Program-made: the position numbers and the translations under genes | Shown here: in pieces, positions 4,955 through 14,883 of the stretch | Position numbering within the stretch: position 1 is the first letter of the stretch | Layout: each line of letters starts with the position of its first letter | NCBI GenBank assembly: GCA_951406725.2 | Contig: OX597822.1 | Coordinates: forward strand, 24,924,001-24,988,000 | Length of the DNA stretch: 64,000 nucleotides | Direction: 5' to 3' | Source of the DNA: Octopus vulgaris | Lineage: Eukaryota | The notes under the pieces: model-generated | Told to the model about the DNA's origin: nothing | Databases searched by the model: none | The model's input: the letters and a program-made list of their open reading frames with translations, nothing else

Positions 4955-5406
4955 TACTTCAGCCCAAGATTATCTAACTAATCTTCTTCAGGTGTAGTTT
5001 TGAGGGACATCTGGCTTCTATTTCTTGTAGGTCATCGTTGTTGTTGAACGCCAGGTCAGCTCCGATCGAGCAGACCTATGATGAAACGTATTCTGGTCGT
5101 GATCATTCAGCTTTTGCTTTTAACCTGTGTAGGAAACCTAGGCCTGCGTTGGATCTCCGTCGCTTACGACGACGAGCATTCCAGGTGTTACGATCAACTG
5201 AAAAACTTGCTCGTAAAATTAACGGGCAAGTGGCAAAGCATTCCACAGACATGCATGTCCTAGACGTAGTTCTCAGGGAGATTCGGCGTGACACTGAGCG
5301 TGACAAGTCTGGCACTTTTGAATTATAGGTTCAACTTAAAACTGACAGCAAAGAGAAATGAAGTGGCTTGCTCAAGGACCCATGTCACACACACACACAC
5401 ACACAG

Positions 5407-6751: not shown

Positions 6752-7335
6752 ATGTGTGTATGTGTGTGTGTGTGTGTGGATGTGTGTGAGTTGGTAAAGT
6801 GTTTCCTCATATTACTGAGTGTGTAGGTGTGTAATGAAAGTAAAGATAATGCGCATCTGTTTATTTTAGAAGCTTTAGAAGAATCCACCCAGCCGCGCGC
6901 GCACGCATGCACACACACTCACAAACTCACATACATACAGACACATATCCGAACCGACTAGGGAGCCCCTCCATGGTAGCTCAGTCGGCTTAAAATAGCA
7001 GCCAAAATCTCCATCACGTTAGATCCGAACCGCTTACGTTTGCGCTTATTTATCTTAATTTTCATTTTAAATAATTTATTGGATAATGTAATTAAGGAGA
7101 GCCGACGCCGGAGTGTGTGTGTGTGTGTGGGGGGGGGGGTTGTGGGTAGGTATCGTGGGGTCGGGCAAGACAACTCGATGATGATGACTAGACTACCCAT
7201 GGTTGCTACGTAAAAGCCGAGGAAGTATTTACATGATGATGGTGATGATGATGATGATGGTGATGATGTTGATGGTGATGATGATAATGATGATGATGGT
7301 GATGATAATGATGATGATGATGATGATGTGAAGGC

Positions 7336-7445
7336 GATGTTCTTCTTTGAGGTGTAGGAAGAACTCGGAAATCTGATATAAACTGACAAAACATTGACTA
7401 AATATTACTCTATCTTTTACCAACATTTTTCTCTTTTTTCATTTG
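7336..7445. repeat. Inverted repeat, arm 1 (partner 11358-11458)
   Basis: 7373-7422 is the reverse complement of 11376-11425 at 49/50 nt; diverged homology continues on both sides. Confidence 0.9.
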
Positions 7446-7563
7446 CACAAGGTCACTCAAATCGACATTGCTCAACAACATAACTCACTACCCGGTCTAG
7501 GAATTGAAACCACGACCTCGTGATCATGACTGCAATACCCTAACCATTAAGCAATGCGCCTCA

Positions 7564-7594
<31 letters not shown>

Positions 7595-7670
7595 CTAGAC
7601 ATGTATGTATGTATGTATGTATGTATGTATGTATGTATGTATGTATGTATGTATGTATGTATGTATGTAT

Positions 7671-8172
7671 GCCATTGTTCTGTTTTATTTAAAGATTTCT
7701 TGCCAATAGAGAAAAAGCCGGTTTCTAATCTAGATCCAGAGCTCCTTCATTGGAATTTCAACATCAACAACAGGGTATGTTTGTTTGTCTGTCTGTCATT
7801 CTGTCTGTCTGTCTGTCTGTCTGTATGTATGTGCGTATGTATGTACGTATGTATGTATATGTGCAGGTTTGTATGTTTTGCTTTTTGTATGTATTCTCAT
7901 GCATATACTTACATATCTAGACATGCTCATATATATTTAAATGATAAACTTCTGGAAAGTTTTACAAATTTTTACAGTTCCAGTGATGGATAGGATCTGT
8001 AGTCTTCGAATTAGCTTTCTCCTTTCTGGTTTTGAGAAGCCTAATTTCTCAAAATTGGTATTTAGGCAGTGTATTACATATCCCAGAGCCCCAGTAATTA
8101 CCTGAACTTGTAATCTGGATAGAGTAACTGTAGATTTCTCAATAGCTTAGCGTAGGTATTCTCTTTTTCACT
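7671..8172 (-). mobile_element. 5'-truncated RLE-type non-LTR retrotransposon (R4/Dong-like): ORF C-terminus plus 3' UTR, frameshifted
   Basis: Translates as SEKENTYAKLLRNLQLLYPDYKFR / ITGALGYVIHCLNTNFEKLGFSKPERRKLIRRLQILSITGTVKICKTFQKFII* (stop 7937), matching the EK..KY..L...IGALG pattern of R4-clade endonuclease ends; (CATA)n on both sides. Confidence 0.75.
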
Positions 8173-8429
8173 ATGTATGTATGCATGTATGTATGCATGT
8201 ATGCATGTATGTATGTATGTATGTATGTATGTATGTATGTATGTATGTATGTATGTATGTATGTATGTATGTATGCTATATCCTAATATGTCATTAAAAT
8301 GCACCCGATGATAAGGCTCCTGTCCAGGAATTGTGGGTAGCGTGGAGTAACCCCTTACCGTTACTCCCAGGTTCATTCTAATCCGGTACAGTAGTATCTT
8401 ATCAGAGTCCCAACAATGAATTATATAGC

Positions 8430-9060
8430 TTTCCTAGGGTTGGAGGAAGCTCCCTTAATTTTTGAAAAAGCCATGGAGAATGCAGCTCTTGTAGGAGAAA
8501 GCTTCTCTAACATAAAACTTGTAGGGTAGCCGACCGGTCTTAAACCTTCGGCGAGTTAGGCCTTGCCTACCTACGCATACGAAGACTGGAGCCGGCTGAT
8601 CCTACAGAAGAAACCACCAGAACGATTTCAACGGAGAAGCGGGCAGTCACAGCAGGGCATCGGGGAATGCATAGGGCAAGATGAGGTACTATAGGACATC
8701 GTGGTCATTCACTGCATCCGGTTCTGTCCTCAGTCTTCTCGATCTGGTTTTGCCTCTGGTTAAGACGGACTCGGACGAGAGAGTGAGGTCGGCGATGCGC
8801 AACCCTTCCTCACTTTAAACAAAGTTTCCTCACGCAAGTCATCTTTCATCCTTCTTTCCACCCTTTCATCCCAAAGTCATTTGGCGACAGGCACGCGACG
8901 AAGCGACAGGTATGGGTACACTGGAAATCGTAGCCGCAAACCTGCAAACAGGCGGCTCAGGCCACAGGGTCGCTATTCACTGACCTGGAGCAGCAGTAGA
9001 TTTCGGCAGCCGTCTGGGCGACTGAGCAGTTCAATTTAGAACGCACTCCCAAACATTGCC
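8430..9060 (-). mobile_element. Probable RTE-clade LINE 5' UTR / 5' region fragment
   Basis: GC-rich complex sequence; GGTTTAAGACCGGTCGGCTACCCT resembles RTE 5' regions from memory; no intact ORF. Confidence 0.45.
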
Positions 9061-9516
9061 TGCTCCACCTACCCTAGCCAGCCTACCGCGTCTCTAGGGG
9101 ACCCTACACACTGCGGTCGGCGCAGATTGGCCTCACTAGCCATCTGCGGACTTACAAAACAAGCCCACCCCCACCCCAGGATGACTAGATGGTCTTCGTC
9201 GCATCGACGGACAAACTGCAGTAAAAATAATACCAGTCATCTTACAAAGCTTGTCACTGAAGCCTAGTATGGCGACCGAGAGAGTGGCAAACGTATTGTA
9301 CGAGCTTTTGTCACTGAAATCCAATCAAGTACAGATCTTACACTATTATTTCATTTTTAGGAATTTGTTCTGCATTTTATGAAGTCCCATGGCGATGGAT
9401 GCGTGGCGTGAAAAGTCATATCCGTGCACATGCAAGAATGAGAGTAAATCGGATTAATCAGGTTGAACGTGTAACTGCTAATTGCCTGGCAAATTGAGCG
9501 CAATCGTGTGTATGTA

Positions 9517-9882
9517 CGAGGGGCTGCGGAAAAGTGCCTGGCTTTGGCTAAAAGAGAATATTGGAGGATCCGTTATTCTTTTATTCTTTTAGTTGTTTCA
9601 GTCATTTGACTGCGGCCATGTTGGCGCACCGCCTTTAGTCGAAAAAAACTCGACCCCGAGGGTTTATTTTCTTAAGCCTAGTCTTTAATGTTTCGAGTCT
9701 ACGCTCTTCCACAGAAAGGAACACAGAAAGAAACAAGGAGAGAAAATAAAGAATGTGTAGTGGCTAGCGATCTATCATGGCGAGGCTTCTTTCAGTTTCC
9801 TTCTACCACATCCACTCACGAGACTGTAGGACTGAACCTGGAACGATACGTTTAAAGCCAGGAACTTTTCACTACCCCCTCG
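9517..9882. mobile_element. Mariner-like MITE shell with other repeats inside
   Basis: TA-flanked imperfect TIRs CGAGGGGCTGCGGAAAAGTGCCTGGCTTT / AAAGCCAGGAACTTTTCACTACCCCCTCG; left end homologous to 54403-54460. Confidence 0.7.
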
Positions 9883-9906
9883 TATGTACGCACACACACA
9901 CACATA

Positions 9907-9953
<47 letters not shown>

Positions 9954-9984
9954 ACAGACGTATATATGTTATCTTGTATCCTTT

Positions 9985-10452
9985 ATTTGTTTCAGTCATT
10001 GGACTGCAGCCATGTCAGGGCACCGACATGAAGGGTTTCAATCGGAAAAATCCGTCCCATAACTTATTTATTAAGTCTGATACTTATTTCGTCCTCTTTT
10101 GTCGAACTGCTGGGTAACTCCAACAATTCAGTTTGGGTAAGTGTATTATTGTGCCAAATTAAAAAATTTTCGGTAAACTTTAAGTTTTGGGGCCGCTGGC
10201 AACCAAACCGAAAAGATCCTGTAAACAAACTAACACCGGTTATGAAACGACAGTAGGGGTGGGTGACAAACTTAGACACACATACACACACAACACATCG
10301 GAATATGTTTCCATCTTCTAAATTCACTCACAAGGCATGGGTGGGCCCAGTGTTATAGCAAAAGTTACTTGCTCAGTCACAGTACTGCGCAGAGAGACTG
10401 AACCCGAAACCACATGACTGCAAAGCGGGCGTCTTAACCCACGTGGCCATGC
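9985..10452 (-). mobile_element. Diverged SINE A interrupted by a MITE-end fragment (~10112-10220)
   Basis: Tail and head motifs of family A; the insert ends in AAACCGAAAAGATCC, the same terminus as the 22930-23309 MITE. Confidence 0.65.
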
Positions 10453-10476
10453 CTACATAAATGTATGCGTGTACGC

Positions 10477-11063
10477 ATGTATGTATGTATGTATGTATGT
10501 ATGTATGTATGTATGTATGTATGTATGTATGTATGCATGCATGCATGCATGCATGTATGTATGTATGTATGTATGTATGTATGTATGTATGTATGTATGT
10601 ATGTATGTATGTATGTATGTATGTGTGTATGTATGTACGTACGTATGTATGTATGTATGTATGTGTGTATGTATGTATGTATGTATGTATGTATGTATGT
10701 ATGTATGTATGTATGTATGTATGTATGTATGTATGTGTGTATGTATGTATGTATGTATGTATGTATGTATGTGTGTATGTATGTACGTACGTATGTATGT
10801 ATGTATGTATGTGTGTATGTACGTACGTATGTATGTATGTATGTATGTATGTATGTGTGTGTATGTATGTATGTATGTATGTATGTATGTATGTATGTAT
10901 GTATGTATGTATGTATGTATGTATGTGTGTGTATGTATGTATGTATGTATGTATGTATGTATGTATGTATGTACGTACGTATGTATGTATGTATGTATGT
11001 ATGTGTGTGTATGTATGTATGTATGTATGTATGTGTGTATGTATGTATGTGTGTATGTATGTA
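10477..11063. repeat. Long (TATG)n microsatellite with TACG/TG variants
   Basis: Direct inspection; source of the spurious MYVC/HTYI ORFs. Confidence 0.98.
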
Positions 11064-11213
11064 TCAGTCTGTCTGTTTACATACAGACACAGTGCATAAC
11101 GCACACCACATCACCTATCCTATGTTGAAAGCTTATATATACACATGCATCTACATGTGCGCACAGGTAGAGAGCTATGTATATACATGTGCCAACACAT
11201 AAAACTCGTCAAG

Positions 11214-11249
<36 letters not shown>

Positions 11250-11357
11250 TGTATACGGCAGGCTAAACAACTCATCACGTGTTGAAAGTTATGATAAAAA
11301 CAAATAAAAAAAAAAATGAACTAAGAAAGTACTAAAAACCAAAAACAAAAAAATACG

Positions 11358-11458
11358 CGAAATGAAAGAAAAGTGTGGTAAAAGATAGAATAATATTTAG
11401 TCAATGTTTTGTCAGTTTATATCAGCTGAGTTCCTTTTATATCCCAGAGGAAAGCATC
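11358..11458. repeat. Inverted repeat, arm 2 (partner 7336-7445)
   Basis: See arm 1. Confidence 0.9.
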
Positions 11459-11831
11459 ATCATCATAACCCTTCTCCTTCTCCTCCTTCTCTCCTCCTCC
11501 TCCTTTCCCACCCTCCTCCTCCTCATCATTATCATCATCGTCATCATCATCACCATCACCATCACCCTTCTCCTTCTCCTCCTCCTCCTCCTCCTCCTCC
11601 TCACCATTACCATCAGCCTTATCATCGTCATTATCGTCGTTATCGTCATCGCTTCTTTCATCAGTAAGCGGCAATTGAAGAAAGAACAAATAATAATAAT
11701 AATAATAATAATAACTGAGAAGAAAAATGAAAATGATAAAGGAAAAAAAGAGAAGAAGACAGAAGCAGAAGAAAATGGAGACTAAAGACGAAGAGAGGAG
11801 AAAGAAAGAAAGAAAGAAAGAAAGAAAGGAA

Positions 11832-11862
<31 letters not shown>

Positions 11863-12633
11863 TGGAAGAATGGAAGAAAAATAGCGAAAGAGAATCTGAG
11901 ATAAAATATGAAAATGAAGAAAAATGAAGGGAAAAGAAGGCAAAAAAAGAAAAAAAAATTAAAGGAGAAAAACTGCGGAAAAAGAAGGCGAAAAGAAGAA
12001 AAAAACTGGAAAAAGAAAAGAAAATGGGGTGGAAAAAAAGAAGAAAATGGAAGATTCAGAGATGAAGGAGAACGAATATAGAAAAGAGTTGATAAAACTC
12101 AAGAAAATTTCTAGTAGTAGTAGCGGTGGAGGTGGTGGTGGTGGTGGCTGTGGTGGTAGTTAAGTGTATCTGCTAAGTGCCACCCCTCCCCGCCACTTAG
12201 TCCTCACATCCGATCTATATTTATAAACCTGTCTTGTCACACAATCCATCCATCCATCCACCCCGCTCTTTAAAGCGCAACTCAGCTGATTTCTAACGCT
12301 GTAGTTGGTTACCTTAGCTACTGTCTATCTACCTACCTTATCTACTTACCTACCCTGGTACGGGTGCCTTTCTTATTAAGCAACTATTTTTTCTACACTG
12401 TATCTGTCTGCATGGATGCATGTGTGCACGCGCATTCGTGTGTGCGTGTGTGTGTATGTGTGTGAGAGAGAGAGAATGTGTGTGTGTCCCTCTTTCTCTC
12501 TCTGGCCGTCTCTCTCTCTCTTTCACTATCTCTGTTCCCTCTTCATTTTAGTCCAACCCGACTCATTCTCAAAAATACTTCCTCTCGTTCTTACTTCACT
12601 TCACTCTCACTTCACTCCAGTCCATGTATTTTC

Positions 12634-14829: not shown

Positions 14830-14883
14830 AGAGCCATAGTTCCTGCTGCTGGCAAGACTGCCGTACGATCGGTCATAGGAAGG
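14830..14883 (-). CDS. Internal 54-nt exon of an unidentified gene (phase 0: PSYDRSYGSLASSRNYGS)
   Basis: Strong acceptor TTTCTTCTTTTTTACTTCCAACAG, donor GTGAGT, length a multiple of 3, GC-rich island; one other frame is also open. Confidence 0.75.

What the first reader, a model, noticed from the sequence alone, without database searches (positions are those of the whole stretch)
7336..11458. Non-SINE inverted segments 4 kb apart with transition-only divergence: candidate long-range RNA duplex
Seen: a 50-nt core (7373-7422 / 11376-11425) pairs at 49/50. After a 4-nt bulge, a 33-nt extension (7336-7368 / 11426-11458) pairs without gaps, giving 22 Watson-Crick, 8 G.U and 3 A.C on a plus-strand RNA. 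All 12 substitutions are transitions. Outer flanks are complementary (GAT)n and (CAT)n tracts. The sequence matches no SINE family in the window. Established: coleoids have extensive ADAR editing, and long-range intronic duplexes can direct editing, splicing and back-splicing. Inference: pairing is under selection. G.U counts favour a plus-strand RNA while the predicted gene is minus-strand, so the functional strand is unresolved.
Basis: partly seen in the sequence, partly recalled or inferred. Interest (0 to 1): 0.75.

Follow-up and report, generated by a model that had tools for sequence, protein, structure and literature searches.

The report
Mirror duplicate in octopus formin intron
A short stretch found nowhere else in this octopus genome sits twice, in mirror image and 4 kb apart, inside one intron of a formin gene; it is likely an old local duplication whose middle was later re-copied between the two copies, it is predicted to pair in the unspliced RNA and would be edited incidentally, and no function is shown.

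Summary
In detail: core 49/50, extension 22 Watson-Crick + 8 G.U + 3 A.C on the plus strand, all transitions. The arms are unique in the 2.8-Gb genome, so they are no SINE or common TIR. They lie in the 36-kb intron 2 of a minus-strand FHOD3-like formin gene, 3.4 kb past a 54-nt exon. No known exon lies between them, which removes exon loop-out and back-splicing as roles. On the real pre-mRNA the core pairs 50/50, but the extension has 8 A.C and only 3 G.U. Local low-copy inverted pairs are common: 29 in 1.46 Mb. This pair has the strongest transition excess of 65 pairs (P=0.003, about 0.2 after correction) and ranks third for patchiness. Contigs of close relatives did not resolve compensation; one shows two changes in the right-arm core. 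Best reading: old inverted duplication with later homogenisation of the core, giving incidental dsRNA (0.55). A selected, editing-buffered intronic helix is the rival (0.27). The scan noted another intronic duplex in this genome (CaMKII), on other DNA.

The parts
7336..7368 (.). Left arm, outer extension (33 nt; 11 transitions against the right arm). It can also form a local 9-bp hairpin on the plus strand.
7369..7372 (.). 4-nt bulge in the left arm
7373..7422 (.). Left arm core (50 nt); the 3' strand of the duplex on the minus-strand pre-mRNA
7423..7440 (.). Weak inner extension with indels (partner about 11359-11375)
7441..11358 (.). Spacer of 3918 nt: 2279 nt dispersed repeats, 1141 nt tandem repeats, 498 nt with no match found
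11376..11425 (.). Right arm core; the 5' strand on the minus-strand pre-mRNA. It lies 45-95 nt upstream of a cryptic acceptor at 11331.
11426..11458 (.). Right arm, outer extension
7233..7328 (+). (ATG)n tract flanking the left arm
14830..14883 (-). Exon 2 (54 nt, phase 0 at both ends) of the long isoform of an FHOD3-like formin gene; its donor opens the 36-kb intron that holds both arms

Best explanation
The two arms are a genome-unique inverted pair inside intron 2 of a minus-strand FHOD3-like formin gene; they likely arose as one old local inverted duplication, and the 50-nt core was likely re-homogenised later by DNA-level copying between the arms, so the pre-mRNA would form an incidental duplex that ADAR would probably edit without a selected role. 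Shown: uniqueness, position, gene strand, repeat-filled spacer, base rate. Inferred: the duplication (about 85-105 nt, arms perhaps under 0.5 kb apart before repeats filled the spacer), later gene conversion or template switching of the core, folding and editing. The transition excess is read as a tail event among many such pairs, helped by the purine/pyrimidine-tract make-up of the extension.
For: Only the two arms match in the genome: 2 places by blast; 2 by a 23-nt pattern with 2 mismatches; 2 by a degenerate extension pattern; of 13 hits to an 18-mer only the 2 arms extend. Low-copy local pairs are common: 29 inverted and 36 direct within 20 kb in 1,464,000 bases; 7 of 29 inverted pairs are over 1 kb apart with a 50-column window of 48 or more matches. 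A direct pair, which cannot form a duplex, has a run of 13 transitions, and another direct pair is patchier than this one. One neutral event cannot give 1/50 beside 11/33 (Fisher P=1e-4), and spacer repeats are only 73-89% identical to their best copies found, so a second event or a constraint is needed. Homogenisation of inverted arms is a described process (PMC8604942, passages). No known exon lies between the arms. The G.U surplus is on the non-gene strand; the extension gives -17.5 kcal/mol on the sense strand against -32.6 antisense. Organism E carries A>G at 11385 and an extra A after 11379 inside the right core. Twelve further inverted pairs lie within 10 kb of each other in the same intron (13 counted with this one).
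Against: This pair has the strongest transition excess of all 65 pairs (12 of 13, P=0.003 against a 53% background) and is third of 65 for patchiness. Conversion does not itself predict a transition-only extension. On the sense strand the core pairs 50 of 50, its one difference being G.U. The template-switch cases in PMC8604942 have spacers of at most 70 nt; conversion over 4 kb with 50-100 nt of homology is assumed, not shown. The one substitution seen in organism E is again a transition. Whether E's left arm mirrors the changes could not be read (116 rows hidden). No distant species was available.
Confidence: 0.55

Rival explanations
1. A selected long-range helix in the FHOD3 pre-mRNA (minus strand). 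The core is held by purifying selection. The extension drifts only through G.U and A.C, because ADAR turns A.C into I.C and restores pairing. The helix would shorten intron 2 or mask the cryptic acceptor region at 11331 and so tune use of the 54-nt exon 2.
For: Sense core pairs 50/50 at -73.3 kcal/mol. Top transition excess of 65 pairs. Eight A.C on the sense strand; edited adenosines in coleoids are enriched at A-C mismatches (PMC8891338, passages), and A-C to I-C often stabilises Alu duplexes (PMC526178, passages). The arms stayed matched while about 3.4 kb of repeats accumulated between them. Exon 2 is frame-neutral.
Against: No conservation or compensation shown; two changes in the right core of organism E. 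Both available cephalopod proteins with this N-terminus include exon 2 and have no insert after it. The cryptic acceptor ranks only 21 of 1926 AG sites in the intron. Two of the 8 candidate adenosines have a 5' G, which ADAR disfavours (read from the sequence; the preference is recalled). After correction for 65 pairs the transition excess is about P=0.2.
Confidence: 0.27
2. Decayed terminal repeats of an extinct or very rare DNA transposon or MITE, or the inverted end of a Penelope-like insertion, whose interior later filled with other repeats.
For: Several other local inverted pairs here look element-derived (alignments). Earlier scan notes describe Penelope inverted ends in microsatellites in this genome (unchecked).
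Against: No third copy. The outer ends are the most diverged part. I saw no target-site duplication by eye. No Rfam match, at E up to 1, overlaps either arm. No Pfam match at the curated cut-off in the frames scanned from the spacer.
Confidence: 0.08
3. The helix works on a plus-strand (antisense) transcript, where 8 of 12 differences are G.U.
For: The plus-strand duplex is -102.5 against -89.5 kcal/mol. Run X5, guessed to be RNA, covers much of the interval at depth about 6.
Against: 8 against 4 is not significant (P=0.39). No plus-strand gene was found (none of the 150 frames scanned, of 223 candidates, reached a curated cut-off). Contigs give no strand, and X5 may be DNA.
Confidence: 0.06
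4. A genomic fossil of an ADAR-edited plus-strand hairpin RNA copied back into DNA, with A-to-G changes in both arms.
For: 8 of 12 differences can be read as plus-strand A-to-G, clustered in 33 nt. Earlier scan notes report such fossils in this genome (unchecked).
Against: 4 of 12 go the other way; the adenosine-rich core shows none; there is no parent element; the same 8 can be read as C-to-T.
Confidence: 0.04

Closest known systems
Inverted Alu/SINE pairs in introns as incidental ADAR substrates (PMC526178, passages read)
   Same: Intramolecular inverted pair in one intron; predicted long stable duplex; A.C mismatches that editing would turn into I.C.
   Different: These arms are genome-unique, about 85 nt rather than 300, and 4 kb apart; in that paper editing falls with distance. 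Editing is not shown here.
Pairs of conserved complementary regions (PCCRs; PMC8052449, passages read) and the ATE1 R1-R5 elements (PMC7797038, search listing and start of abstract only)
   Same: Non-repeat intronic complementarity, under 10 kb apart, energy far below -30 kcal/mol.
   Different: PCCRs are defined by lying in conserved intronic regions and are supported by compensatory changes; neither is shown here, and no known exon is looped out.
Homogenisation of inverted-repeat arms by template switching (PMC8604942, passages read)
   Same: A near-perfect tract inside a more diverged inverted pair.
   Different: The cases studied there have arms of 7-16 bp and spacers up to 70 nt; here the tract is 50 nt and the spacer 3.9 kb, so ectopic gene conversion (recalled knowledge) fits better.
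Intronic RNA bridge in octopus CaMKII (earlier scan note e1-8666958, unchecked)
   Same: Same genome; long intronic duplex across kilobases.
   Different: That one is reported at both ends of an intron between mutually exclusive exons; this one lies 3.4 kb inside an intron with no such exons.

Membership tests
High-copy repeat (SINE/LINE) inverted pair | Arms belong to a dispersed family | tested here: not met
   Two places only; 2 of 13 18-mer hits extend. Blast searches skip very common words, but the pattern scans agree.
DNA transposon / MITE TIR | Other copies of the same terminal repeat | tested here: not met
DNA transposon / MITE TIR | Target-site duplication and best-kept outer ends | tested here: not met
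   Outer 33 nt are the most diverged; flanks are microsatellites, no duplication seen by eye.
PCCR / functional long-range intronic duplex | Both arms in one pre-mRNA, within 10 kb, at least 10 nt, energy -15 kcal/mol or lower | tested here: met
   Intron 2 of the FHOD3-like gene; -89.5 kcal/mol predicted.
PCCR / functional long-range intronic duplex | Arms conserved above their surroundings across species | tested here: inconclusive
   Only apparently close relatives: D right arm 3 substitutions and 4 gaps over 11258-11454; E two changes in the right core; left arm poorly covered.
PCCR / functional long-range intronic duplex | Compensatory substitutions | tested here: inconclusive
   No left-arm rows among the 40 shown; 116 hidden.
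PCCR / functional long-range intronic duplex | Effect on splicing, reversed by compensatory mutants | not testable with these tools
   Needs a minigene or antisense blocking.
Back-splicing or exon loop-out element | Arms flank an exon | tested here: not met
   Exon 2 (14883-14830) lies outside the loop and exon 3 about 28 kb beyond it; no protein-supported exon between. An unannotated microexon is not excluded.
ADAR substrate | A-to-G in RNA against matched DNA on the transcribed strand | not testable with these tools
   Only contigs were available; the X5 piece over the left arm starts at 7373 and misses the extension.
Known ncRNA family (Rfam) | Match at the gathering score | tested here: not met
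   70 matches at E up to 1 in 6800-12000, all below gathering, none on the arms.

The most novel reading that the evidence does not exclude
An editing-buffered helix: in an animal with very high ADAR activity, a selected long-range intronic duplex in the formin pre-mRNA tolerates genomic A.C mismatches because ADAR converts them to I.C. The genome then shows transition-only drift with an A.C surplus on the sense strand, and helix length, and with it FHOD3 splicing, would depend on ADAR activity (tissue, temperature). Such pairs could be screened genome-wide by this signature alone.
Probability: 0.12. Interest if true: 0.65.

Novelty: new member of a known kind. Interest (0 to 1): 0.28.

Why it matters
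Under the best reading it matters little: it is one of an estimated tens of thousands of local inverted pairs (29 in 1.46 Mb, extrapolated) that can make incidental dsRNA in octopus introns. If the rival holds, it would show RNA editing shaping which mutations a non-coding helix tolerates, with eight named sites that can be checked in existing nuclear RNA-seq, in a gene whose mammalian relatives maintain muscle sarcomeres (search listing).

Tried and rejected
High-copy repeat or TIR: rejected. Known RNA family: only microsatellite-driven matches below gathering. Gene in the window by Pfam: none of 150 frames scanned (of 223 candidates) reached a curated cut-off; the 54-nt exon was found only through homologues. 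The frame at 4978-5325 looked protein-like but had no homologue among longer proteins. A microexon between the arms: a candidate acceptor at 11262 scored -5.9, rank 753 of 1926, and neither cephalopod protein has an insert. Masking of a uniquely strong cryptic acceptor: rank 21 of 1926, so not special. Strand choice from G.U counts: not significant. Read laying (4 of the 24 runs listed): contigs only; the left-arm bin had depth 5.87, 0.93, 0 and 20.4, and a hole proves nothing. An inversion of the spacer was not seen: one contig of organism D joins the inner flank, core and extension of the right arm as in the window. Earlier scan notes near this place or on look-alike stretches: none. Literature searches (listings only) showed no paper on this locus; supplements with editing-site tables were not opened and may bear on editing here.

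Full report
Observation. The pairing is as described. The core matches 49 of 50; the extension matches 22 of 33 without gaps and gives 22 Watson-Crick, 8 G.U and 3 A.C on a plus-strand RNA; all 12 differences are transitions. An optimal aligner moves the bulge and counts 12 transitions and 1 transversion; with 25-nt flanks the count is 15 and 4. A weaker inner extension reaches about 7440 / 11359. The right-hand CAT run is only about four units.

Copy number. The window lies in a 2.8-Gb genome. Blast with either arm finds only the two arms. An 18-mer with one mismatch gives 13 hits against 31 for the control, and only the two arms extend. A 23-nt core pattern with two mismatches and a degenerate extension pattern each find exactly the two arms. 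No Rfam family covers them.

Gene context. Pfam found nothing at its cut-offs in 150 of 223 candidate window frames. In 200 kb on each side lies a minus-strand formin gene with GBD, FH3 and FH2 domains. Homologues name it FH1/FH2 domain-containing protein 3; the O. sinensis protein is 99.8% identical over its largest exon, so the genome is an Octopus very close to O. sinensis. The long isoform starts about 33.6 kb beyond the window's end, has a 54-nt phase-0 exon at 14883-14830, and continues at about -21124. Spliced translation confirmed 25 of 27 junctions tried, including both of these. Both arms therefore lie in intron 2 (about 36 kb), from 3.4 kb past the donor. No protein-supported exon lies between them, so the pair cannot loop out or circularise a known exon.

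Strand. The pre-mRNA is the minus strand. There the core pairs 50 of 50 (49 Watson-Crick, one G.U; -73.3 kcal/mol) and the extension has 22 Watson-Crick, 3 G.U and 8 A.C (-17.5). The whole duplex is -89.5, against -102.5 on the plus strand. The 8:4 split is not significant (P=0.39). These are predicted energies of the isolated arms.

Spacer. Of 3918 nt, 2279 are dispersed repeats, 1141 tandem repeats and 498 unmatched. Best identities of spacer repeats to other copies were 73-88% for six of ten pieces in my 1.46-Mb pool; four had no hit there, and one search gives up to 89% over 540 nt for the nested element. The arms may once have been within a few hundred bases (inference). The 98% core is then younger than, or has outlasted, the spacer's growth. 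Core and extension differ in divergence (1/50 against 11/33, P=1e-4). One neutral duplication cannot give this; later homogenisation or a constraint is needed.

Base rate. In 1,464,000 bases (this neighbourhood plus five 200-kb regions) there are 29 inverted and 36 direct low-copy pairs of at least 45 nt within 20 kb. Some of these may be rare transposon pieces; I did not check their genome-wide copy number. Seven of the 29 inverted pairs are over 1 kb apart with a window of 48/50 or better. Transitions are 258 of 482 substitutions in the other 28 inverted pairs and 405 of 795 in the direct pairs. Against this the focal pair is the top outlier of 65 for transition excess (P=0.003, about 0.2 after correction, and it was picked for this trait) and third for patchiness. 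A direct pair has a run of 13 transitions and another direct pair is patchier, so each trait can arise without RNA pairing; no other pair shows both so strongly. With the higher transition share among differences in laid contigs (59-64%), 12 of 12 has P of about 0.002-0.005. The same intron has 12 more inverted pairs within 10 kb.

Relatives. Four of 24 listed runs were laid, all contigs. Organism D holds the right arm with 3 substitutions and 4 gaps over 11258-11454. Organism E has a contig at a depth like its other isolated contigs here (47) with A>G at 11385 and an extra A after 11379, both inside the core. If unmirrored, 11385 would be one more sense-strand A.C. The contig's end 31 letters from that site and its depth fit an unmirrored change, but this is a weak inference: left-arm rows were not among the 40 of 156 shown. 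X5, guessed to be RNA, covers much of the interval at depth about 6, but may be DNA and shows no strand. Joint conservation and compensation stay open.

Possible target. The right arm lies upstream of a cryptic acceptor at 11331 scoring 8.3, within the range of true acceptors, but it ranks 21 of 1926 AG sites in the intron. Five AATAAA and several good donors lie in the loop, as in any such intron. Neither gives a specific role.

Mechanism. Most likely (0.55): an old local inverted duplication, a spacer enlarged by repeats, and a later conversion tract over the core. The pre-mRNA would fold and be edited like other intronic inverted pairs. In octopus most editing is in introns and 3' UTRs (PMC9699675, passages), and repeats are the main metazoan targets (PMC9989829, passages). 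The main rival (0.27) is a selected sense-strand helix that tolerates A.C because editing gives I.C; coleoid editing sites are enriched at A-C mismatches (PMC8891338, passages), and I.C often stabilises Alu duplexes (PMC526178, passages). Decayed element ends (0.08), an antisense helix (0.06) and an edited-RNA fossil (0.04) fit worse.

Comparison and novelty. It works like an inverted SINE pair, but from unique sequence. It meets the geometric and energy terms of a PCCR (PMC8052449, passages) but conservation, the defining feature, is untested in distant species, so I do not file it there. Five literature searches showed no paper on this locus in their listings. Verdict: real, unique, a new member of a common kind, with one unexplained statistical oddity and a cheap decisive test. 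Interest 0.28.

Noticed in passing
window 14830-14883 (-), with exons at about +97.6 kb and from -21.1 kb to -199 kb in window coordinates: The long FHOD3-like isoform is split in the O. sinensis annotation: its first exons are filed as 'stress protein DDR48' (XP_029641335), while the Argonauta model joins them to the formin. A second start exon with the usual formin N-terminus lies at about -67.3 kb.
   Followed up: partly
L035-L037 area, window coordinates -128371..-126784 and -140359..-139860; also 84542..84962 beyond the window: Three more low-copy inverted pairs lie in introns of the same gene; one has 3-4 transitions against 16 transversions, the opposite bias.
   Followed up: partly
L060-L061 area, window coordinates 196001-196344 / 197206-197567: A young 344-nt inverted duplicate, 862 nt apart, with 3 substitutions, all transversions.
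   Followed up: no
window 8292-9520: A nested insertion: a moderately repeated element at about 8520-9220 splits another element whose halves are adjacent in copies elsewhere.
   Followed up: no
L064-L065, window coordinates about 233000-241200: Two diverged LINE-like reading frames face each other in inverted orientation about 5 kb apart.
   Followed up: no
window 4978-5330: Unique-looking sequence with open frames on both strands and no homologue among longer proteins; nature unknown.
   Followed up: partly
window 7339-7365 and 11431-11452: Each extension can fold into its own short hairpin, in different registers, which would compete with the long-range extension (and by eye).
   Followed up: partly
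L133, G000:C9:60012847-60015715: An 853-nt inverted duplicate about 1.2 kb apart with a single substitution.
   Followed up: no
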